A model generated the notes under the pieces. It ran no database searches. It saw only the letters and a list, made by a program, of their open reading frames with translations, and was not told the origin of the DNA. The position numbers and the translations under genes were made by a program. Below are positions 3,146 to 31,328 of a stretch of DNA of 32,000 nucleotides, one piece after another. The stretch is from Mucisphaera calidilacus (lineage in GTDB: Bacteria; Planctomycetota; Phycisphaerae; Phycisphaerales; Phycisphaeraceae). The DNA lies in contig NZ_CP036280.1 in NCBI RefSeq assembly GCF_007748075.1, forward strand, positions 300,001-332,000, read 5' to 3'. Within the stretch, counting starts at the first letter, position 1; each line of letters opens with the position of its first letter.

Positions 3146-3186
3146 GCGGGTGTAGTTCAGTGGTAGAACGTCAGCTTCCCAAGCTG
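3146..3186 (+). repeat. attL: 41-nt fragment identical to nucleotides 1-41 of tRNA-Gly(CCC) (acceptor 5' strand, D-arm, anticodon arm); truncated tRNA copy
   Basis: gcgggtgtagttcagtggtagaacgtcagcttcccaagctg is identical, 41/41, to 11421-11461. Identity stops abruptly on both sides. No T-arm or acceptor 3' strand follows the left copy. Confidence 0.9.
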
Positions 3187-4261: not shown

Positions 4262-5689
4262 TCAATCTTCCAGATCTTCCCAGTCGTCGTCGTCCAGATC
4301 GGCATCATCTTCATCGGCAGGGTCGTGGTCGGCCGCCTCGTCGTCCTCTTCGTCGTCGATATCTTCGTCCGCCTCGTCCTCGTCGGCCATGTCCTCGTCT
4401 GCCTCGTCCTCGATCTCTTCATCTTCTTCTTCATCTTCGAACCTGAGTCTCACGAAGATGAAAAACCGCCTATCGTCCTCACGCTCATCGATGCCGCTTG
4501 CAATTGTAGTGCCAGGCAGACGTGGCCCGCCGCTCTGGGTCGTCGATGAATGGAAACCACCGAGTACCGCTACGCCGCCATTCCCCAGGTAGACCTGGGA
4601 CTTGATCCGTCTCGTTGCGATCGTCGGCAGGCCGTCAACGAACTCCCGCACGCTCGACAACTCCGGCTCGATATCCAGACGTGCCTTGCCAGCGTCGACA
4701 CTGTGAGCTCGCACCTTGATCTGTAGGCCCGTCTGGAAGACCTGGGTATCCACATCGGTAACGGTGCCCTCTGGCGAAGCCACGCGTTGGCGAACGTTAA
4801 TCTCGTCGCCCGCTTCCAGCGTCGCCTCGTCGCCCTCGACCAGGTGCAGCGTCACCTGTTCGGCATTGAGTCCCTGCGTCGCCTGCGAGTCTCCAAAGAG
4901 GATGCCCGACAGCGTCGCCTGCAGGGAACTCGTAAAGGTGCCTGTCAGCGGGTCCAGCTGTCCGTCCCATTGAAGTAGCTGGTCCCCGGACAGGGCCATG
5001 TCGATTCCAAGCGATCGCGTCTGCGAGTCGGTGAGCTCGACCATGACGAGCTCAATGTGATATTCACGCCGGCAGCCCGATACCGCCTCGTGAAACCGCC
5101 GGACTCGTGTAATGGTTTCTGCTGTGTCCCTCACCACTATGAGATCTCCTATGCCGTTGGCCCGGACTCGCTCCGAGCCCGCAAGTGAATAGACGTCGAT
5201 CCAGTCCGTCGCGTCTCCCGATGGCACCGCGAAGACCGCGACGTCGTAGTCTCCCTCTGTCGGCTTCCCGACATAGACGTACCCGTCACGTTGGGCCACC
5301 ACGCCACCGCCGCCGCACCGCTCCGCCATTGCCGAAAGGATCCGGTCGATCGGTGTGTTCGTGAACTTGCCTGAGAACTCGAGTCCTCGGCTCTCGTCAT
5401 CGAGGATGACGGTGATGCCCTCATATGCCAGGCATCGAGCCAGATGCCCCATCGGTCCCTCGACTGTGAGACTCACCCGCTTCTGCCTCAGCGGATCCGG
5501 CTTGATCTCTTCCGGCTCCAGCCTCTGCAGTGCTTCCTGATTCGTCGCGTCTGCGATCACCGGCAGCTTGATCGGCTGCCCACTTTGCGGCTGTGGCTTG
5601 TTGTAGATCGGCACCTGTGACGATGACAGGCAACCCGAGAGGCACAGGCACATCAAGATCACGTATGTTCCAGAGCGTTTCACCGTCAT
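4262..5689 (-). CDS. Secretin (phage pIV-like outer-membrane channel) with a lipoprotein signal peptide and a 58-aa poly-acidic C-terminal tail
   Basis: 'MTVKRSGTYVILMCLCLSGC' is a signal peptide plus lipobox. The secretin C-domain signature is 'GLPTIATRRIKSQVYLGNGGVAVLGGF...LPG...RRFFIFVRLR'. It lies immediately downstream of the Zot-like gene, as in Ff gI-gIV. The start is taken as ATG 5689; the track's TTG at 5704 is the alternative. Confidence 0.75.
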   Translation of the reverse strand: MTVKRSGTYVILMCLCLSGCLSSSQVPIYNKPQPQSGQPIKLPVIADATNQEALQRLEPEEIKPDPLRQKRVSLTVEGPMGHLARCLAYEGITVILDDESRGLEFSGKFTNTPIDRILSAMAERCGGGGVVAQRDGYVYVGKPTEGDYDVAVFAVPSGDATDWIDVYSLAGSERVRANGIGDLIVVRDTAETITRVRRFHEAVSGCRREYHIELVMVELTDSQTRSLGIDMALSGDQLLQWDGQLDPLTGTFTSSLQATLSGILFGDSQATQGLNAEQVTLHLVEGDEATLEAGDEINVRQRVASPEGTVTDVDTQVFQTGLQIKVRAHSVDAGKARLDIEPELSSVREFVDGLPTIATRRIKSQVYLGNGGVAVLGGFHSSTTQSGGPRLPGTTIASGIDEREDDRRFFIFVRLRFEDEEEDEEIEDEADEDMADEDEADEDIDDEEDDEAADHDPADEDDADLDDDDWEDLED

Positions 5690-11420: not shown

Positions 11421-11461
11421 GCGGGTGTAGTTCAGTGGTAGAACGTCAGCTTCCCAAGCTG
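11421..11461 (+). repeat. attR: right copy of the 41-nt direct repeat (inside the intact tRNA)
   Basis: Identical, 41/41, to 3146-3186. Confidence 0.9.
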
Positions 11462-11491
11462 AATGTCGTGGGTTCGAGTCCCATCACCCGC
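11421..11491 (+). tRNA. tRNA-Gly (anticodon CCC), intact; its first 41 nt form attR of the prophage
   Basis: Cloverleaf read by hand: acceptor gcgggtg/cacccgc, D-arm gttc-agtggta-gaac, anticodon arm tcagc-ttCCCaa-gctga, variable atgtc, T-arm gtggg-ttcgagt-cccat. CCA is not encoded. Confidence 0.9.
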
Positions 11492-11606
11492 TTTGGAAGA
11501 TAAATCAAGTTCCGATCGCTAGTTAGCGAACTTACCCTCGTCGGGCGGTGCGGCTCTGCAAGCCTCGAAAAAGTGGTAGTTACCACTTTGGCTGTGGAGA
11601 CCGAAC

Positions 11607-13890: not shown

Positions 13891-14542
13891 TGCCGGTCAC
13901 GGACTACCACCAGCTGCTCATGAGCCTAAGTCGGTGAGGGATCGGTGAATCATGACTTACCGCCGCTGGAATGACCGTGACCGTCAGCGGGCAGAGCTTG
14001 TGGTCAGGCTGGAGCTTGGCATTATGCTTTCAAAATGATCTATACGTCTATCCATCCTGGTTTCTCTATCAAGCGGGTGATTCCAAACAAACGCTGAACT
14101 GTCGCCGAAAACAAGAACCAAGAATGAATCAGGATTCGGGGAGAGGCGCAGTTCGGACACCGGGCTGCTGGTCTACCGGAAACTTGATAAGACGGTGAAG
14201 CTGACGCAGAAGGCTGCCAGAGTCGCTTGCCAGCCTGAAATCGTGGCTTTTTAGCATCGCGAGGCTTGCGTTCGCCTCGTCTGTGCGATAATATTTGCTC
14301 GAAATCGCCTAGGCAGCGTATCCGGGCATCCCAAATGGCAAAGGTCAGCCAAAACAGCTGAAGGCTCCGTCGTTATCAACTCCAGAAAAACGACTGAGTG
14401 TCGTACAAGTGTTTGGCGTGAGATGAAATATTAACTCCTAACTTTCAACCAACATATAAGGACTACTAAGGATATTGATGCTGCATCGGCACTGTGTGCT
14501 GCGTGTATATGGTGCCGATCCGAGTTTACAGGAGAATCAACC

Positions 14543-16825: not shown

Positions 16826-17341
16826 AGTCGAAGTTCCACCATATTCCTACCGATCGCTGAGTGCTCGACAAGTTACCCATCTGCAAATTCCAACCTCGTC
16901 AAGTCCATGAGATTTTGGGGAGGCCCCCCGCGGCGGGTGTCGTGGTGAGTTTGGGATTGAAAGTCTTCACAGCCGGTTGTTCACTGAATTAGCAATGAAC
17001 AAGCATCAGAAGGCAGTTGTATCCGTAGGCACATTTCTCGTGGTGCTACTTGCTGTTTTCCGCCTGCTCGCTATGTCGATACTGGCGAGCAGAAATGGCA
17101 TCTGAGCTAACTCTCCTTCCGCTTAGATCTCAAGTGAACAGCCTTACACTGGTTCTGCATTCAGACTTCTATGCGGCAGCTGTAATCGCAATCATTGTGA
17201 CCGCATCACTACTACTCCGGTATGCCCTGAAGGACTGAGCAAGATGGGGGAGTATCTCAGCTGACCGCTCCCCGGATTCTGATCCATTCATGATGCTCGT
17301 TTTCGGCGACAATTCGGCCTTTGTTTGGAAAGGCCATTTTG

Positions 17342-17608
17342 ATGAAGAAGTCGAGATTTACCGAGGAGCAGATCGCGTTCGCACTCCGCCAGGCCGAGGG
17401 TGGTACGCCGGTGAAGGAGGTCTGCCGGAAGCTGGGTGTGCATGAGCAGACCTTCTACCGGTGGAAGAAGCAGTTCGCGGGTATGGGCGTGGCGGAGTTG
17501 CGCAAGCTCAAGCAGCTAGAGGAAGAGAACTCGAAGCTCAAGCGACTGGTGGCCGACCTGAGCCTGGATCGTCAGATCCTGCAGGACGCCCTCAAGGGAA
17601 AGCTCTAA
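17342..17608 (+). CDS. IS3-family transposase OrfA (HTH + leucine zipper)
   Basis: 'MKKSRFTEEQIAFALRQAEGGTPVKEVCRKLGVHEQTFYRWKKQFAGMGVAELRKLKQLEEENSKLKRLVADLSLDRQIL' is a canonical IS3/IS407-group OrfA. The track ORF starts at an upstream TTG (17321). Confidence 0.85.
   Translation: MKKSRFTEEQIAFALRQAEGGTPVKEVCRKLGVHEQTFYRWKKQFAGMGVAELRKLKQLEEENSKLKRLVADLSLDRQILQDALKGKL
17596..17602 (+). promoter_or_regulatory. Programmed -1 ribosomal frameshift heptamer G GGA AAG (OrfA to OrfAB)
   Basis: The heptamer fits X XXY YYZ in the orfA frame (codons aaG GGA AAG). A -1 slip continues as 'GKALKPDHRRAMANRTQLKY...', which is the orfB frame of the 17461-18195 track ORF. The orfA stop lies 4 nt downstream. 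Confidence 0.6.
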
Positions 17609-18159
17609 AGCCTGATCATCGCCGTGCGATGGCCAATCGAACGCAGCTCAAGTACGGCGTCAGCGAGCGTCGTGCGTGCAAGGTCCTGGGCCATGCAAGG
17701 GCGACGCAGCGTTACCAGAGCGTGGCGGATGATCAGGCAGCCCTTCGAAGCAGGATCAAGCAGATCGCTGGGGTCCATGTGACCTGGGGTTATCTTCGGA
17801 TCTGGGTGAAGCTCCGACGCGAAGGCCATCATGTGAACAAGAAGCGTGTCTACCGTCTATACCGTGAAGAAGGCTTGGCGATGAGCCGGCGGCATAAGCC
17901 GCGTCGCCATCGCAGCAGTATGCACCGTCTCGAGCAGACCACCGCAACATGCGCGAACCAGAGTTGGTCGATGGACTTCATGGCCGATGAGTTGTTCGAC
18001 GGCCGTCGGTTCCGGCTCTTGACGTTAGTCGATGACTTCACGCGTGAGAGTCTGGCGTTAGAGGTTGGCCAGCGGCTTGGCGGGCGCGACGTGTCGCGGG
18101 TTCTGACTAGGATCGGTCATCGACGCGGCTTGCCTAAGACGATCCGAGTCGACAATGGA
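17602..18159 (+). pseudogene. IS3-family transposase OrfB, 5' part (DDE domain up to '...IRVDNG'), interrupted
   Basis: '...QSWSMDFMADELFDGRRFRLLTLVDDFTRESLALEVGQRL...LPKTIRVDNG', after which the frame runs into unrelated sequence ('KLCKPGHAAVR*'). Confidence 0.8.
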
Positions 18160-18250
18160 AAACTATGCAAGCCGGGTCATGCAGCGGTGAGATGACCGCG
18201 AGACCATGATCCGGTTGCATTGATCCCCGAATCTTCGAAGGAGTCTTGTC

Positions 18251-19297
18251 ATGCTGATCCTCGCGTTGGACCTGGGTAAGTTCAAGAGTGTCGCCTGCTC
18301 GTACCGCGGAGATGATGACACGGAGTTCCGGACGATCGAGACCCGGCCACAGGTGATCCACGATCTGCTGACGGAGTGTGAGCCGGAGCGATTGGTGGTG
18401 GAGGTGGGGACAGTGACGGGCTGGGTGCACGACCTGGCGGCGGCTCTGGGGATCGAGGTGCAGGTCGCCAACCCGAATACCGAGGGCTGGCGTTGGCGTC
18501 GGGTCAAGCGTAAGACGGACCGAGACGACGCATTGAAGCTCGCTCGGCTATCGGCGGCAGGTCAACTGCCAACGGTGTGGATGCCCAAGCCGCGGGTTCG
18601 GCAGTGGCGTTCGCTCATCCACTACCGGCACGCATTGGTGAGCCGGCGGACGGCGATCCGCAACAACATCCGATCGGTGCTGGACGCTCAGGGACTTGGT
18701 CTGGCGATGGGCAAGAAGGCGTGGACCGAGGAGGGCATGCTTCGTGTGGCGGAGATCGCCAAGCCGATTGTGTCGTGCTCGGCGGATGAGTTGTGGCGCG
18801 GTCAGCTCGATGTCGAGGCGACCTTGCTGATACAGCTGCAATCGCAGCTCCAAGCGGTTGAAGACAGGCTTGATGCGCTCGCGGCGACCGACGCCCGCAC
18901 GGCTCGGCTTCGCACGATCCCCGGCGTGGGCCCGCGTCTGAGCGAGGCGGTGGTAGCTTGGGTGGACGACCCGGAGCGATTCCGCAATGCCAGGGCCGTG
19001 GGCTCGTACGTCGGCCTGGTTCCCCGGCGGCGGCAGTCGGGGACCTACGACCGTTCGGGGCGTGTGACCAGGCAGGGCCCGAGTCTCTTGCGGAAGCTGC
19101 TGGTGGAGGTGGCGTGGATCATGCGGCAGCACAATCCGCACGCGGAGGCGTTGTTCAGGAAGCTAAGCAAGGGTGAGCGAAGCCGGCACAAGCAGGCGAT
19201 GGTGGCGTTAGCCCGGCGGGTGCTGACCTGGTGCTGGGCGATCCTGCGGGATGGCAGCACGTGGGACCCCGAACGGATCGGGTTGGAAGCGGCCTAG
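18251..19297 (+). CDS. IS110-family (DEDD) transposase
   Basis: 348 aa. The N-terminus 'MLILALDLGKFKSVACSY' carries the first Asp of the DEDD RuvC-like domain. The C-terminal 'IPGVGPRLSEAVVAWVDDPERFRNARAVGSYVGLVPRRRQSG' is the typical IS110 HhH/Tnp domain. Confidence 0.9.
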   Translation: MLILALDLGKFKSVACSYRGDDDTEFRTIETRPQVIHDLLTECEPERLVVEVGTVTGWVHDLAAALGIEVQVANPNTEGWRWRRVKRKTDRDDALKLARLSAAGQLPTVWMPKPRVRQWRSLIHYRHALVSRRTAIRNNIRSVLDAQGLGLAMGKKAWTEEGMLRVAEIAKPIVSCSADELWRGQLDVEATLLIQLQSQLQAVEDRLDALAATDARTARLRTIPGVGPRLSEAVVAWVDDPERFRNARAVGSYVGLVPRRRQSGTYDRSGRVTRQGPSLLRKLLVEVAWIMRQHNPHAEALFRKLSKGERSRHKQAMVALARRVLTWCWAILRDGSTWDPERIGLEAA

Positions 19298-19350
19298 AGC
19301 GGTGTTGATCTTAGACGGATGAGGAGCCTTGGTTGATGCGAAGATTGCTA

Positions 19351-19422
19351 CGACTGCGGCGGCAGAGCTCGAGAACTCTGGTGAGCCTTAGCTCGACAAC
19401 GGAAATGAGCGCCGCCGTGTCG
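19351..19422 (+). ncRNA. Candidate bridge/seek-RNA target-binding module of the IS110-family element
   Basis: Outer stem cgac(t)gcggcggc / gccgccgtgtcg. Then an aga bulge and a gctc/gagc stem. The symmetric internal loop has 12-nt strands, gagaactctggt (19371-19382) and gacaacggaaat (19395-19406), flanking the hairpin gagc-ctta-gctc. The loop strands mirror the insertion-site flanks (see finding). Confidence 0.35.
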
Positions 19423-19555
19423 CAAAGTTGAATGGGCCCACCCCCAAACGGTGGTCAACCCGGATAGTGACCTGAACCGATCTCGCTGCATCAAGGCCAA
19501 CAGACTTAACGGAGAAAAAGCATGAGCTGAATGTTGACAAACCGGCTTCATAGTG

Positions 19556-19843
19556 ACCGAGTTCACTAGCAAGGTTCTGGACCAGTGGGCATACGCCAAC
19601 GGGGTGGCTCTGGACTTTAGTCGTCCTGGAAAGCCGACAGATAACGCGTTGATCGAGTCCTTCAACGGTCGTCTGCGTCAAGAGTGCTTGAACGAGAGTT
19701 GGTTCCTGAGCCTGGAGGATGCCCGGGAGAAGCTCGAAGCCTGGCGAACTGATTACAATCTCCATCGACCTCATAGCGCGTTGGGCAACCTGGCCCCCAG
19801 CGAGTTCGCTGGTTCAATCGGCCGGGTTAACCCAGCCGATTGA
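19556..19843 (+). pseudogene. IS3-family transposase OrfB, 3' part (resumes at 'TEFTSK...')
   Basis: 'TEFTSKVLDQWAYANGVALDFSRPGKPTDNALIESFNGRLRQECLNESWFLSLEDAREKLEAWRTDYNLHRPHSALGNLAPSEF' is the canonical IS3 DDE C-terminal region with the catalytic Glu context. It is contiguous with 18159 once the nested IS is removed. Confidence 0.85.
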
Positions 19844-19903
19844 TGATCGAGGCTGGCATAGATACTGGCACCGGAATGGGGAGAGGCGCAACAGGCGGAA
19901 AGG

Positions 19904-20824
19904 TCACTTCGATTGTGGCGTGATGAGCAACCGGGGGTGGGTCTTGGTCATCCAATCCACAACCTCCGGTCGCAGTCCGACCGATTCCTGCAGCAGACCC
20001 GCCGCCTGCCGCAAGGGCATCGCCGAGCCCGCAAGCTGCCCGGTGCCCGGCAATCGAACCGTCAGATCATCGGCGACGTCCAGCACAAGCCGACCCAGAC
20101 CGTAACGACCCGGCCCCATCCCCGCCGGCGCACTGGCATCACTCACCACAAAGCAGCGCTCGTACCCGGCCACCGCGAGATAATTCCTTAGAGCAAAGCC
20201 CGGTACGTGTATGCCATCCCCGATAAACCCGAATAACAGGCGCTCGGCACGTGACAGGAGCCGCTGGATGATGTTGTCGTGTCGCGGCAGTTCGGTCGGG
20301 CATCCGTTGCCCAGATGCGTGACCATCGACAGCCCGGCATCTATAGACCGATCCAGTGCTTCTGCCGGAGCATCGGTGTGCCCGGCCGAAACGATCACAC
20401 TCCGGTCTGCCAGCCAGCGTGTCAAGGCCGCATCCGCATCGTGTTCCGGCGCTAGCGTGAAGATGCGCAGCAGCCCGTCCGCAGCATCGAACAGCCGCTT
20501 GGCCTCGTCCACGGTCGCGGGCTTGACGGCCTCCGACGGGTGAGCCCCACGGTAACCATCAACCGGACTAATGAAAGGCCCCTCAACGTGCAGACCGGCG
20601 ATGACCGAGGCAATCAGTTCATCCCGCTCACGCATCTCGACGATCCGAGCCAACTTGCGCACCATGACCGGCACATCGTCCGTGATGACCGTGGCCAGCA
20701 TCGCGTCCACGCCGTCACGACGCATCATGTCGCAGGCGCGGTGAAGGTCGTCGACTGATAGCTCATCAGCATTGAAATCTACACCGCCGTAGCCGTTGAC
20801 CTGCAGATCGACCAGGTGATTCAT
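19904..20824 (-). CDS. nagA: N-acetylglucosamine-6-phosphate deacetylase-like amidohydrolase, short form (TIM barrel only)
   Basis: It starts directly at '[15 protein letters not shown]', the NagA metal/substrate motif of the QxN type. 'LHVEGPFIS' and 'VSAGHTDA' are present. ATGA overlaps the nagB stop. At 306 aa it lacks the N- and C-terminal beta-sandwich segments of ~380-aa NagA. Confidence 0.7.
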
Positions 20825-26152: not shown

Positions 26153-26431
26153 CGTTAGCAGGCTAGCGACATGCGAGGCGAGCGCCAAGAGAATTCTCAT
26201 TAAATGATTCAATTATCCTCCGCAGCGTATCTCATGCGTGAGCAACCCTTTGACGCAACTGTGAGCAAGCGATCCGAGCCCCCGCATTCCATTCTTTCAT
26301 TGACTTGGGTAATGACCGCGTTACCTTGATGAACAGTCCGATCGGAATTTTGCGTCTGGCACGGGACACCAAAACCCGAAAGAACGACAGCACCTGGTCT
26401 TACCAACAGGCGACGCACCTTGAAGAGCAGC

Positions 26432-27562
26432 ATGCAGGGACTTAAAAAGATCAACCAAGCCTCGGCCGCCGCGATGAATCGCGCGCTCGTCCTCGGCCTG
26501 ATCCGTGAGTCTGGCCCACTGTCTCGTCGCCAGCTCACCGAAAAAACCAGTCTCCGAAGCTCCAGCGTCACCTACATCACACGCGACCTGATCGAAGCAC
26601 AGATCATCCACGAGCGTGGAAAACTCGACAGCAACAGCGTCGGGAAGAAACAGGTCCTGCTCGACATCAACCCCGACTTCGGTTGGGTCATCGGCATCGG
26701 GATCGATGGCGACTGGATGTCCCTAGTGATGCTTGACGCTCAGGGCTGCGTGATCGACCGCGACCATGTCGCCATGCTCGAACCCTTCGAACTGCTCCCC
26801 GAACGCCTCAAGCAACGCATCGACAGCTGGATCGACAGACGAGGACAGCCCGCCGGCGAACTCCTCGGTATCGGTATCGGGATGCCTGGGGTCATCGACC
26901 CCGACCGCGGGATCGCACTCCGCTCTGTGCCATTCCGCCTCACCAGCTGGCCCCTAGCCGAGCGTTTCAACCAACGCTTCAACGTGCCCGTCACGGTCGA
27001 CAACGACTCCAATTTCGCCGCGCTGGCCGAAGCCAGACAAGGGCACGGCAAAGACGCAGGTGACTTCCTCTATTTTCTGATCAACGCCAAGGAAGACGGG
27101 GATCGCTACACGCTCCAGGGACTCGGGTCCTCCCTTTTTCTCAATGGGCAGCTCTACCGCGGCGCCCACTTTGCTGCCGGTGAGATCGACAAGCTCATCC
27201 AGAATGGCGAGATCGAAAGCCTCTCCGCCAAGCAAATCCTTGCCCTGGGTTCGCCCGATGGCCAACTCGATTCAGGCCTCAAGCGAGCACTCAACCAGCT
27301 CGGCCTCATCCTCGTCGCCACGACCGACCTGCTGGACCTCCCGGCCGTGCTCCTCGGCGGCAACATCAACATCACCAATCCCACCGCGATCGAGTACCTC
27401 CAGGAACGGATCAACCGTGAGATCGTGCCCGTGCCCGATCGCCACGTCACGGTTTACCCTTCACGCCTGATCGAGCAAGGCGTATCAACAGGGGCCGCCA
27501 TCGCAGCCACCGAAGCCGCTTTCCGACAGAGCAGCCAGGTGATGCCCGTGGTCAAGAACTAA
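26432..27562 (+). CDS. ROK-family transcriptional regulator (NagC/Mlc-like: wHTH + ROK sugar-kinase fold), lacking the Zn-binding Cys motif
   Basis: wHTH 'NRALVLGLIRESGPLSRRQLTEKTSLRSSSVTYITRDLIEAQII'. ROK core 'GIGIGMPGVID', 'VTVDNDSNFAALAE', 'RGAHFAAGEI'. The track start is TTG 26420; ATG 26432 is preferred. Confidence 0.8.
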   Translation: MQGLKKINQASAAAMNRALVLGLIRESGPLSRRQLTEKTSLRSSSVTYITRDLIEAQIIHERGKLDSNSVGKKQVLLDINPDFGWVIGIGIDGDWMSLVMLDAQGCVIDRDHVAMLEPFELLPERLKQRIDSWIDRRGQPAGELLGIGIGMPGVIDPDRGIALRSVPFRLTSWPLAERFNQRFNVPVTVDNDSNFAALAEARQGHGKDAGDFLYFLINAKEDGDRYTLQGLGSSLFLNGQLYRGAHFAAGEIDKLIQNGEIESLSAKQILALGSPDGQLDSGLKRALNQLGLILVATTDLLDLPAVLLGGNINITNPTAIEYLQERINREIVPVPDRHVTVYPSRLIEQGVSTGAAIAATEAAFRQSSQVMPVVKN

Positions 27563-30185: not shown

Positions 30186-31328
30186 ATGAATACGCCCCAG
30201 GGCAAAGCCAACCACTCGAGCACCGCGATCCATAATCGCCGGCTCACCATCCAGCTCCTCCGGGAGTACGGGCAGCTGTCCCGCAGGCAACTCGGTGAAC
30301 TCACCGGCCTACGCAGCTCGACCCTCACCTACATCATGCGCGACCTCCTTGAACACGAGGTCGTGCGCACCGTCGGCAAACGCGCTTCCAAGTCCGTCGG
30401 AAAGAAACAGGTCCTCCTCGAAATCAACCCCCACGTCGGTTGGTCCGTCGGTATCGGCGTCGATACCGAAGCCCTCCTCGTCGTCGTCATGGACGCAGCC
30501 GGTGATGTCACCTCCAAAGACCGCATCACCTGCGACACCCGCGCCGATAGGGTCGAAGACCGCCTCGCCGAGCTTGTCCAGAGCCTCTGCAATAACGATC
30601 GACCCGCCGACCGACTCCTGGGGGTCGGCCTGGGTATCCCCGGTGTCGTAAACCCCGACGAAGGGCTCATCCTCCAGTCCACCATGCTCAGGCGCAAGAT
30701 GTTCCCCATCGGCAGCCTCCTCGCCGCCCGGATCGACGCACCCGTGCACGTCGACAACGATGTCAACTGCGCCGCCATCGCCGAAGCACGCGACGGCCAC
30801 GGCACCGACCTCAACAGCTTCGTCTTCTTTATCATCAATGCCATCGAGAGTGGCGACCGCTTCGCGCTCGCGGGTGTCGGTTCCGCCCTCTACCTCGCCG
30901 GCAAGATGTACCGCGGAAGGCACTTCGCCTCCGGCGAGATCGATGCGCTGCTCGACAACGACCCGCTCGAACGTGTGACCGCCGGCCAACTCCTCCAGCT
31001 CGCCGATCACGCCGCTCCTCTCACCCCCGAACTCGAGGCCATCGCAGCCCGGCTCGCACGCACCATGGCCATCGTTGTCGACCTCATCGACCCCCAGGCA
31101 CTCATCATCGGTGGCAACGTTGACCTCGCCAACCAGGCCGTCATCCAACGCATCGCCGAGTCCATCAACACCGACATCATCCCGATCCAAGGCCGACAGA
31201 TCGTGGTCCGCGGATCACGCTACACCACCCACGGCGTGCCCGTTGGCGCATCGTGTCGTGTCCTCGACGCCGTCATGCTCGGCATCGGCCATCACATGCC
31301 CAGCGACCGCTTGTTCATGCCACGCTAG
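30186..31328 (+). CDS. Second ROK-family regulator, paralog of 26432-27562, also without the Cys motif
   Basis: 'NRRLTIQLLREYGQLSRRQLGELTGLRSSTLTYIMRDLLEHEVV', 'GVGLGIPGVVNP', 'VHVDNDVNCAAIAEA', 'RGRHFASGEI'. The track gives both ROK ORFs as 380 aa, and the two are colinear throughout. Confidence 0.8.
   Translation: MNTPQGKANHSSTAIHNRRLTIQLLREYGQLSRRQLGELTGLRSSTLTYIMRDLLEHEVVRTVGKRASKSVGKKQVLLEINPHVGWSVGIGVDTEALLVVVMDAAGDVTSKDRITCDTRADRVEDRLAELVQSLCNNDRPADRLLGVGLGIPGVVNPDEGLILQSTMLRRKMFPIGSLLAARIDAPVHVDNDVNCAAIAEARDGHGTDLNSFVFFIINAIESGDRFALAGVGSALYLAGKMYRGRHFASGEIDALLDNDPLERVTAGQLLQLADHAAPLTPELEAIAARLARTMAIVVDLIDPQALIIGGNVDLANQAVIQRIAESINTDIIPIQGRQIVVRGSRYTTHGVPVGASCRVLDAVMLGIGHHMPSDRLFMPR

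What the first reader, a model, noticed from the sequence alone, without database searches (positions are those of the whole stretch)
19351..19422. Bridge/seek-RNA-like fold in the IS110-element 3' end whose two loop strands mirror the two flanks of its own insertion site
The long 3' non-coding end (19298-19555) folds on paper as follows. There is a 12-bp outer stem (cgac[t]gcggcggc / gccgccgtgtcg), an aga bulge and a gctc/gagc stem. A symmetric internal loop of 12+12 nt then surrounds the hairpin gagc-ctta-gctc. The 3' loop strand gacaacggaaat matches the left junction gacaatgga|aaa (18151-18162) at 10/12 positions. The 5' loop strand gagaactc(t)ggt is the reverse complement of the right flank accgagttcac (19556-19566) at 10/11 positions, with one extra nucleotide. 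One strand could therefore pair with the bottom strand of the left flank and the other with the top strand of the right flank. This is the logic described for IS110/IS621 bridge RNAs and IS1111 seekRNAs. Further downstream, ggatagtgacc (~19461-19471) repeats the right end plus flank (catagtg|acc), and aaaaagcatgagc (~19515-19527) loosely resembles the left end aaaactatgcaagc. These are possible donor guides. If real, this is a natural guide RNA programmed against another transposon's catalytic-site codons.
Basis: partly seen in the sequence, partly recalled or inferred. Interest (0 to 1): 0.7.

Follow-up and report, generated by a model that had tools for sequence, protein, structure and literature searches.

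The report
Guide RNA of a jumping gene
The fold is real: it is the guide ("bridge" or "seek") RNA of an IS1111-type insertion sequence, whose loops base-pair with the catalytic-site codons of another transposon's transposase gene. This is a new example of a mechanism first described in 2024, not a new mechanism.

Summary
Window 18160-19555 is an IS110-family element of the IS1111 type. It has a DEDD transposase gene (18251-19297), 13-14 bp subterminal inverted repeats and a 258-nt 3' non-coding end. It sits inside an IS3-family transposase gene between the codons DNG|TEF.

It folds better than all 200 shuffles (z = -3.6). [quoted passage not shown]

The two 10-nt loop strands track each element's own flanks across 18 different targets. 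The right guide matches 8.2 of 10 against 3.9 for other elements' flanks; the left guide 4.2 of 6 against 1.9. No permutation out of 20,000 reached either value.

A second module holds two donor guides. AUAGUGA(CC) matches the right end and GCAAAGUU pairs with the left end, and both covary with the ends.

Eight close relatives with readable flanks also sit in DNG|xEF codons. The window site is near-cognate: Thr ACC where the guide expects Pro CCR.

IS1111 bridge/seekRNAs are published, and so is targeting of the IS3 second-D codons (ISEc21). This is a new member of a known kind.

The parts
17262..19944 (+). Host IS3-family element. It holds orfA 17321-17608 and orfB in two pieces, 17461-18159 and 19556-19843. 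The ends are approximate: TGACCGCTCCCCGG... on the left and ...CCGGGGGTGGGTCA on the right.
   Evidence: Pfam gives HTH_Tnp_1 for orfA, and HTH_21 plus rve / rve_3 for the two orfB pieces. Joining the pieces gives RVDNGTEFTS, a motif found in 33 of 120 homologs.
18160..19555 (+). IS110-family element of the IS1111 type, 1396 bp. The boundary is ambiguous by one A (18159/18160). The dinucleotide GA is at both junctions (18158-59 and 19555-56).
   Evidence: It interrupts the IS3 orfB in frame. The same junction architecture is seen in relatives.
18162..18175 (+). Left subterminal inverted repeat, ACTATGCAAGCCGG.
   Evidence: It is the reverse complement of CCGGCTTCATAGT at the right end, with one extra base. 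It is conserved in relatives.
18251..19297 (+). Transposase (recombinase) gene, 348 aa.
   Evidence: Pfam PF01548 (DEDD_Tnp_IS110) and PF02371. NCBIfam NF033542 'IS110 family RNA-guided transposase', 217 bits against a cut-off of 140. D7, E51, D90, D93, S263 and G264 are invariant in 32 homologs.
19351..19422 (+). Target-binding stem-loop of the bridge/seekRNA: outer stem, GCUCG/UGAGC stem, 10+10 internal loop and inner hairpin.
   Evidence: MFE z = -3.63. Consensus structure. Covariance-model hit of 152 bits, the only one in the window. Helices 1-3 are 91-98% paired with 21 of 22 pairs changed on both sides.
19372..19382 (+). Right-target guide AGAACUCUGG+U. It pairs with the top strand of the right flank: GAGTTC at 19559-64 and ACC at 19556-58, with U19379 bulged.
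   Evidence: Across the family, RC(guide) matches the element's own right flank 8.2/10 against 3.9 for other elements' flanks; 0 of 20000 permutations reach this.
19396..19405 (+). Left-target guide ACAACG + core GA + AA. It has the same sequence as the left junction 18152-18161 and so pairs with its bottom strand. There is one C.A mismatch, at AAT where the guide expects AAC.
   Evidence: The six non-core nucleotides match the element's own left flank 4.2/6 against 1.9 for other elements' flanks; 0 of 20000 permutations reach this.
19422..19429 (+). Left-end (donor) guide GCAAAGUU, complementary to the LE top strand AACTATGC (18161-68) at 7 of 8 positions.
   Evidence: The 4-nt core of this guide covaries with LE positions 2-5: AACT/AGUU, GACT/AGUC, ATCC/GGAU, ACCC/GGGU, AGCT/AGCU, ATCT/AGAU. 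Own elements score 3.64/4 against 2.75 for others; 0 of 20000 permutations reach this.
19433..19462 (+). Hairpin of the donor-binding module: UGGG / CCACC...GGUGG / CCCG.
   Evidence: Helices 4-5 are 95-98% paired with 8 of 9 pairs changed on both sides.
19464..19472 (+). Right-end (donor) guide AUAGU + core GA, followed by CC. It has the same sequence as the right junction ATAGTGACC (19550-58).
   Evidence: AUAG+NNN equals the RE CATAG+NNN in seven triplet classes; own elements score 2.81/3 against 1.34 for others. The first base after the core matches the right flank in 14 of 27 elements, against 26% for other elements' flanks.
19534..19539 (+). TTGACA, 16 nt from the right end. It is a likely -35 box of a promoter completed by the LE hexamer AACTAT when the element circularises.
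   Evidence: It is conserved at the same distance from the end in relatives. Junction promoters are reported for ISEc11 and ISEc21. This role is inferred, not shown.
19542..19554 (+). Right subterminal inverted repeat, CCGGCTTCATAGT.
18151..18159 (+). [quoted passage not shown]
   Evidence: The same codons flank the relatives L001, L002, L081-L085 and L093.
19556..19564 (+). Right half of the target, ACCGAGTTC (codons Thr-Glu-Phe).
   Evidence: Relatives have NNN-GAGTTY at this place.

Best explanation
Window 19351 to about 19488 (+ strand) encodes the bridge RNA (seekRNA) of an IS1111-type insertion sequence.

In the first module (19351-19422), an internal loop presents two 10-nt guides. The 5' strand pairs with the top strand of the right half of the target. 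The 3' strand pairs with the bottom strand of the left half of the target, plus a GA core.

In the second module (19422-19472), GCAAAGUU pairs with the left end of the element. AUAGU-GA has the sequence of the right end plus core, so it pairs with the bottom strand there.

Bound to the DEDD/Ser recombinase encoded just upstream, the RNA would bring the circularised element and the target together. Recombination at the core then inserts the element.

The target of this clade is GACAAYG-GN-NNN-GAGTTY. These are the codons Asp-Asn-Gly-x-Glu-Phe around the second catalytic Asp of rve-type (IS3-like) transposases, so every insertion destroys another transposon's transposase gene.

The window copy landed in a near-cognate site (AAT for AAC; Thr ACC for Pro CCR).

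Shown here: the fold, its conservation and covariation, and covariation of all four guides with their DNA partners. Inferred from published relatives: transcription, binding to the protein, circle formation and the chemistry.
For: - The protein is an IS110-family RNA-guided transposase. It aligns to the IS1111-type TnpEc11 (E = 1e-17).
- The fold is predicted in the single sequence and in the consensus of 9 close relatives.
- On that alignment 95% of cells are paired, against 75% after shuffling and 28-41% when partners are slid. 29 of 31 pairs have changes on both sides.
- G.U pairs are conserved (35 of 36, 29 of 35 and 41 of 42 sequences). These are only possible on the sense strand.
- Both target guides match their own flanks far better than other elements' flanks.
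- Within the close clade, the guide triplet facing codon x changes with the target: AGC with AGC in L094, CCC with CCC in L082 and L083, CCA with CCG in L081 and L084.
- Both donor guides covary with the element's ends.
- The order of the guides matches IS1111 seekRNAs. The multi-part donor module matches what is described for IS1111 bridge RNAs.
Against: - There are no expression data.
- No sigma-70-like promoter or intrinsic terminator was found in 18100-19650.
- No Rfam family matches, and the published covariance models were not available.
- The alignment used for the pair counts was fitted to the model, which inflates the counts.
- The flank tables were curated by hand from regex output.
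- The window's own guides are imperfect for its site: one C.A mismatch and one bulge.
- No empty site was recovered, so the exact crossover point is inferred.
- Junctions of three of the nine close relatives with a readable right junction (counting the window) are 1-2 nt short of the in-frame target expected from the other six.
Confidence: 0.9

Rival explanations
1. The RNA gene is real, but this copy is a dead end. It inserted at an off-consensus site, its guides no longer fit its flanks, and it cannot excise or move again.
For: The left guide has C where the flank has T. The right guide needs a 1-nt bulge. Siddiquee et al. report that target sequence flanking the donor is needed for circle formation. 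Only one copy is present in the 32-kb window.
Against: The transposase ORF is intact with all catalytic residues. Both ends, the sTIRs and all stems are intact. ISEc21 still moved with only 3 to 5-6 matching flank bases. A 98% identical protein exists in a Mucisphaera calidilacus genome, which suggests recent activity of the element.
Confidence: 0.2
2. The conserved structure has another role, such as a 3' stabiliser or terminator of the transposase mRNA or a protein-binding site. On this view the resemblance of its loops to the flanks is incidental.
For: The structure lies directly after the stop codon, where 3' stabilising hairpins are common. The window's own flank matches are each reached by 2-3% of shuffles.
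Against: In relatives with 18 unrelated targets the loop strands follow each element's own flanks (0 of 20000 permutations), while the stems stay constant in shape. Loop length is fixed at 10+10. No U-tract terminator is present. A stabiliser would not need loops that change with the insertion site.
Confidence: 0.03
3. Chance: a GC-rich hairpin plus fortuitous 10-nt similarities.
For: The genome is GC-rich. The whole-NCR fold energy is not unusual (z = -0.45).
Against: The 72-nt module beats all 200 shuffles. Only 1 of 2000 shuffles gives both matches. The homologous structure is found in about 45 loci with compensatory changes.
Confidence: 0.01

Closest known systems
IS1111-family seekRNAs (ISEc11, ISPa11, ISKpn4, ISPst6; Siddiquee et al. 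2024, PMC11187229)
   Same: The RNA is encoded in the long NCR downstream of tnp. Subterminal inverted repeats are present. One short segment is complementary to the top strand and one to the bottom strand of the target, with the top-strand match 5' of the bottom-strand match, and the two matches abut or overlap at the insertion point. The transposase is 348 aa and carries the GL-P----SG motif. A junction promoter is likely.
   Different: The transposase is only 27% identical to TnpEc11, over the C-terminal 227 aa. The host phylum differs (Planctomycetota, class Phycisphaerae, judging from the best hits). The target differs: IS3-type DNGxEF codons rather than attC sites, REP sequences or the ISEc11 site. 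No experimental data exist for this element.
IS110/IS1111 bridge RNAs (IS621 and the survey in Durrant et al. 2024, PMC11208160; structure in PMC11208158)
   Same: There are two modules, one for the target and one for the donor. Each has a guide for the top strand of one side and the bottom strand of the other, and a short core is shared by both modules and both DNAs. After the core, each guide continues with 1-2 nt that fit the recombination product, in a handshake-like way.
   Different: IS621 carries its RNA in the left end, upstream of the gene, and its donor loop is a simple internal loop. Here the RNA is in the right end. The donor guides flank a hairpin instead of facing each other across a loop, as noted for many IS1111 members. 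The core is GA here and CT in IS621.
[quoted passage not shown] Fig. 11)
   Same: It has the same class of target, the conserved catalytic-site codons of IS3-family transposase genes, and is RNA-guided.
   Different: ISEc21 has its NCR upstream and the opposite order of guides. Its transposase shows no significant similarity to the window protein (E = 0.92). The shared target therefore appears to have been reached independently.

Membership tests
IS110 family (DEDD transposase) | Transposase with an N-terminal DEDD (RuvC-like) domain and the C-terminal PF02371 domain carrying the S/T-G motif. | tested here: met
   PF01548 E = 2.7e-11 and PF02371 E = 6.1e-24. NF033542 scores 217 bits against a cut-off of 140. 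D7, E51, D90, D93, S263 and G264 are invariant.
IS1111 subgroup | Subterminal inverted repeats of 7-17 bp. | tested here: met
   ACTATG(C)AAGCCGG at 18162-75 against CCGGCTTCATAGT at 19542-54. The left repeat lies 2 nt from the element's end and the right repeat 1 nt from it.
IS1111 subgroup | The longer non-coding region lies downstream of tnp. | tested here: met
   The 5' NCR is 91 nt (18160-18250) and the 3' NCR is 258 nt (19298-19555).
IS1111 subgroup | Transposase of 330-350 aa with the GL-P----S(t)G motif, related to IS1111-type transposases. | tested here: met
   The protein is 348 aa and contains VGLVPRRRQSG. BLASTP to TnpEc11 gives E = 1e-17, but only over residues 126-345. BLASTP to the IS110-type TnpEc21 gives E = 0.92. 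No phylogeny was made.
Bridge RNA / seekRNA | A structured RNA in the NCR with conserved stems supported by covariation. | tested here: met
Bridge RNA / seekRNA | Loop strands complementary to the top strand of one target flank and the bottom strand of the other, changing with the target. | tested here: met
.
Bridge RNA / seekRNA | Donor-binding guides that covary with the element's two ends, and a core shared with the target guides. | tested here: met
   The core GA is at 19402-03, 19469-70, 18158-59 and 19555-56. The exact crossover point is inferred.
Bridge RNA / seekRNA | The RNA is transcribed, binds the recombinase and is required for transposition. | not testable with these tools
   No expression or biochemical data are available. 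No promoter-like site was found by the consensus scan.
Bridge RNA / seekRNA | A match to a curated or published covariance model. | tested here: inconclusive
   No Rfam 15 family matches the region even at E <= 10.

The most novel reading that the evidence does not exclude
This clade may be a dedicated RNA-guided parasite of other transposons. Its guides appear built to recognise a protein motif (DNGxEF) rather than one DNA sequence.

The guide nucleotides that face codon third positions (AAY, CCR/CCY/AGY, GAR, TTY) are almost always U or G. These can pair with either synonymous base through wobble. The triplet facing the variable residue x is retuned between subclades (Pro CCR, Pro CCC, Ser AGC).

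The same catalytic-site target was reached independently by the unrelated ISEc21 lineage. This suggests that the second-D codons of rve transposases are a recurrent 'safe harbour' for RNA-guided insertion sequences.
Probability: 0.3. Interest if true: 0.5.

Novelty: new member of a known kind. Interest (0 to 1): 0.33.

Why it matters
It confirms from sequence alone that a complete four-guide bridge RNA can be read out of an uncharacterised planctomycete insertion sequence. It also gives a family of about 45 natural variants with paired guide and target data. These include natural retargeting events and a tolerated near-cognate site with a bulge and a mismatch.

Such data are useful for understanding the specificity rules of IS1111-type bridge recombinases, which are less studied than IS621. 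The finding adds a second, independent lineage that homes into the catalytic codons of IS3-type transposases. It does not reveal a new mechanism.

Tried and rejected
- The Rfam scan of 17200-20200 at E <= 10 gave only three weak hits elsewhere in the stretch, none overlapping the 3' NCR.
- Exact-sequence look-ups of the window transposase and of its 98% relative P0001 found no contigs.
- The search for an uninterrupted copy of the host IS3 gave no homolog above 75% identity. The empty site could not be recovered; only the motif statistics were usable.
That stretch is not conserved in L001, L002 or L081-L094. A different, covarying left-end guide exists.
- I first took the trailing 'cc' of GGAUAGUGACC to be coincidence, because it is kept in relatives with other flanks. 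I revised this: CC is the clade's usual right flank, and post-core matches are enriched family-wide.
- A simple 2-nt core duplication (target GACAATG-GA-CCGAGTTC) would leave the IS3 gene out of frame. The in-frame reading DNG-T-EF is favoured because RVDNGTEFTS is common among homologs.
- The consensus stem that alifold drew between UAGUGA and UCGCUG was left out of the model, because it would sequester the donor guide and does not vary in the close clade.
- The promoter and terminator scan found nothing.
- The protein search of plasmids found only distant named IS110-family elements at 24-29% identity (IS5708, ISShdy1, IS1618, ISSba8). These are too distant to test RNA homology.

Full report
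**What is in the window**

Positions 18160-19555 form an insertion sequence. It holds one ORF (18251-19297, 348 aa) with the two Pfam domains of IS110-family transposases, PF01548 and PF02371. The ORF also matches NCBIfam NF033542, 'IS110 family RNA-guided transposase', at 217 bits against a cut-off of 140. The best database relative (98% identity) carries that same name in Mucisphaera calidilacus.

The element has subterminal inverted repeats: ACTATGCAAGCCGG at 18162-75 and CCGGCTTCATAGT at 19542-54. Its 5' non-coding end is short (91 nt) and its 3' non-coding end is long (258 nt). These are the marks of the IS1111 subgroup as defined in PMC11187229 and PMC11208160.

The protein aligns to the IS1111-type TnpEc11 (E = 1e-17, including the VGLVP....SG motif) but not to the IS110-type TnpEc21 (E = 0.92).

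The element interrupts an IS3-family element. That element has orfA at 17321-17608 and orfB in two pieces, 17461-18159 and 19556-19843 (Pfam HTH_Tnp_1, HTH_21, rve, rve_3). The break falls between GAC AAT GGA and ACC GAG TTC. [quoted passage not shown]

**The observation**

For the 72 nt alone the energy is -33.2 kcal/mol, z = -3.63, and none of 200 shuffles folds as well.

The stated matches are exact. The 3' loop strand matches the left junction at 10 of 12 positions. The 5' loop strand is the reverse complement of the right flank at 10 of 11 positions, with one extra nucleotide. In 2000 dinucleotide shuffles of the NCR, 57 reach the left match, 37 the right match and 1 reaches both. The single sequence is therefore suggestive but not decisive.

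**Relatives**

A profile search of species-representative genomes returned 80 loci with 43-75% identical transposases. A metagenome scan added 14 loci, five of them with full-length matches at 70-79% identity (L081-L085).

Eight close relatives (70-79% identical over the matched part) have readable flanks: L001, L002, L081-L084, L090 and L094. All eight lie in DNG|xEF codons of different rve-type transposase genes. Two truncated relatives, L085 and L093, show the same left junction.

A covariance model built from nine sequences gives a single hit in the window (19348-19491, + strand, 152 bits). [quoted passage not shown]

On that alignment:
- 95% of cells are standard pairs, against 75% after shuffling and 28-41% when partners are slid.
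- 29 of 31 pairs show changes on both sides.

The alignment was fitted to the model, which favours the structure, but the margin is large.

Three positions are nearly always G.U or U.G. This is possible only for the sense strand, so the structure belongs to a transcript of the + strand, or to that DNA strand.

**The conserved architecture**

The layout is: outer stem, then GCYCG, then a 10-nt strand, then a hairpin, then a second 10-nt strand ending in core+AA, then UGRGC, then the outer stem again. The stems keep their shape while the two 10-nt strands differ between elements.

**The guides follow the flanks**

I tabulated both strands and both junctions for 33 loci. Eighteen of these have distinct targets.

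- The reverse complement of the 5' strand matches the element's own right flank at 8.2 of 10 positions on average. Against other elements' flanks it matches 3.9.
- The six non-core bases of the 3' strand match the element's own left flank at 4.2 of 6, against 1.9 for others.
- In 20,000 permutations of the assignment, none reached either observed mean.

Examples with 10 of 10 are L009 (ACCGUCCACU against AG-TGGACGGT) and L007.

Inside the close clade, the triplet of the guide that faces codon x changes with the target:
- AGC with AGC in L094.
- CCC with CCC in L082 and L083.
- CCA with CCG (a U.G wobble) in L081 and L084.

**The window site is near-cognate**

The window's right guide reads (as reverse complement) A-CCA-GAGTTC. 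That fits Gly(A)-Pro-Glu-Phe, whereas the site is A-ACC-GAGTTC (Thr). This explains the 'extra nucleotide': U19379 must bulge.

The left guide has C where the site has T (AAT instead of AAC). Among 120 homologs of the host transposase, x is Pro in 51, Thr in 34 and Ser in 32, and RVDNGTEFTS occurs 33 times. The in-frame join DNG-T-EF is thus a credible original sequence.

**The donor side**

Downstream of the first module lies a second one. It consists of GCAAAGUUGAAUGGG, a hairpin (19433-62) and CCCGGAUAGUGACC.

- AUAG+N+core equals the right end CATAG+N+core in seven classes: TGA, AAG, AGG, GAG, TGG, TCG, TAG. Own elements score 2.81 of 3, against 1.34 for others.
- The same core dinucleotide precedes AA in the left-target guide.
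- The four bases AGUU (19426-29) are complementary to LE positions 2-5 and change with them: AACT/AGUU, GACT/AGUC, ATCC/GGAU, ACCC/GGGU, AGCT/AGCU, ATCT/AGAU. Own elements score 3.64 of 4, against 2.75 for others, and no permutation out of 20,000 reached this.
- In the window the pairing extends to 7 of 8 (GCAAAGUU with AACTATGC, 18161-68).
- The one or two bases after the core in the right-end guide tend to match the right flank (14 of 27, against 26% for other elements' flanks). The AA after the core in the left-target guide equals the first two bases of the left end.

Both guides therefore also fit the recombination products. This resembles the handshake guides described for IS621 (my recollection of PMC11208158; not checked here).

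**Junction details (inferred)**

In the close clade the left junction always reads GA. The right junction reads G plus a variable base. In six of the nine elements with a readable right junction (counting the window), that base completes an in-frame Gly codon of the target (GGT, GGC, GGG, GGA). The window, L002 and L090 are 1-2 nt short of that scheme.

This fits an exchange inside a 2-nt core whose second base need not match, but the crossover point cannot be fixed without an empty site or a circle junction.

TTGACA lies 16 nt from the right end in the window and its relatives. With AACTAT of the left end it could form a promoter on the circle, as reported for ISEc11 and ISEc21. No promoter or terminator for the RNA itself was found.

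**Comparison with what is known**

IS1111 seekRNAs lie downstream of tnp and carry the top-strand match 5' of the bottom-strand match. Bridge RNAs were predicted in 93% of IS1111 elements, often with donor-binding bases in a multi-loop rather than a simple internal loop. The window RNA fits both descriptions.

[quoted passage not shown] The window element is not a detectable relative of ISEc21, so the same target appears to have been found twice.

Rfam 15 has no matching family.

**Verdict**

The feature is a new member of a known kind.

What remains untested is expression and activity. A modestly novel idea is left open: the guides use U and G opposite codon third positions, and so recognise a protein motif degenerately.

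Noticed in passing
window 11421-11492 and 3146-3186: There is a tRNA-Gly(CCC) gene at 11421-11492 and an exact 41-nt copy of its 5' part 8.3 kb upstream. These may mark the borders of an integrated element.
   Followed up: no
window 14037-14146 vs 17265-17374: A 110-nt inverted repeat (72% complementary) with the left end and orfA start of the IS3 host element. It looks like the remnant of a second IS3 copy in the opposite orientation.
   Followed up: no
window 26618-26712 and 30375-30469: A 95-nt direct repeat at 77% identity, lying inside two ORFs of 380 aa each (26420-27562 and 30186-31328). They are probably paralogous genes.
   Followed up: no
L030 about 4280-4600: The right-end segment of the element (...CACGGCTTCATAGTCGCTGGCAGCGG...) is repeated at least three times in tandem downstream of the element. 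This locus's right flank does not fit its guide.
   Followed up: no
L008 2616-2768 (+) and 4067-4219 (-): Two copies of the same element lie in inverted orientation about 1.3 kb apart.
   Followed up: no
L046 and L057, right junctions: In these two cyanobacterial relatives, the flank that matches the right-target guide starts 3-4 nt beyond the core (extra TAGA or AGT).
   Followed up: no
L030, L031, L042, L050, L059, L064 junctions: In the subclade whose guides and right end carry the core CG, the left junction consistently reads AG. The two junction cores therefore differ at position 1.
   Followed up: partly
window 19372-19382, 19396-19403 and the same positions in L001, L002, L081-L084, L090, L094: Guide bases facing codon third positions (AAY, x3, GAR, TTY) are almost always U or G. 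The guide has U even where the observed target base is G. This would tolerate synonymous variants by wobble.
   Followed up: partly
window 18251-19294 (protein): There is a weak sub-threshold NCBIfam match (24.9 bits against a cut-off of 100) to the TIGR-Tas RNA-guided endonuclease model over residues 128-264.
   Followed up: no
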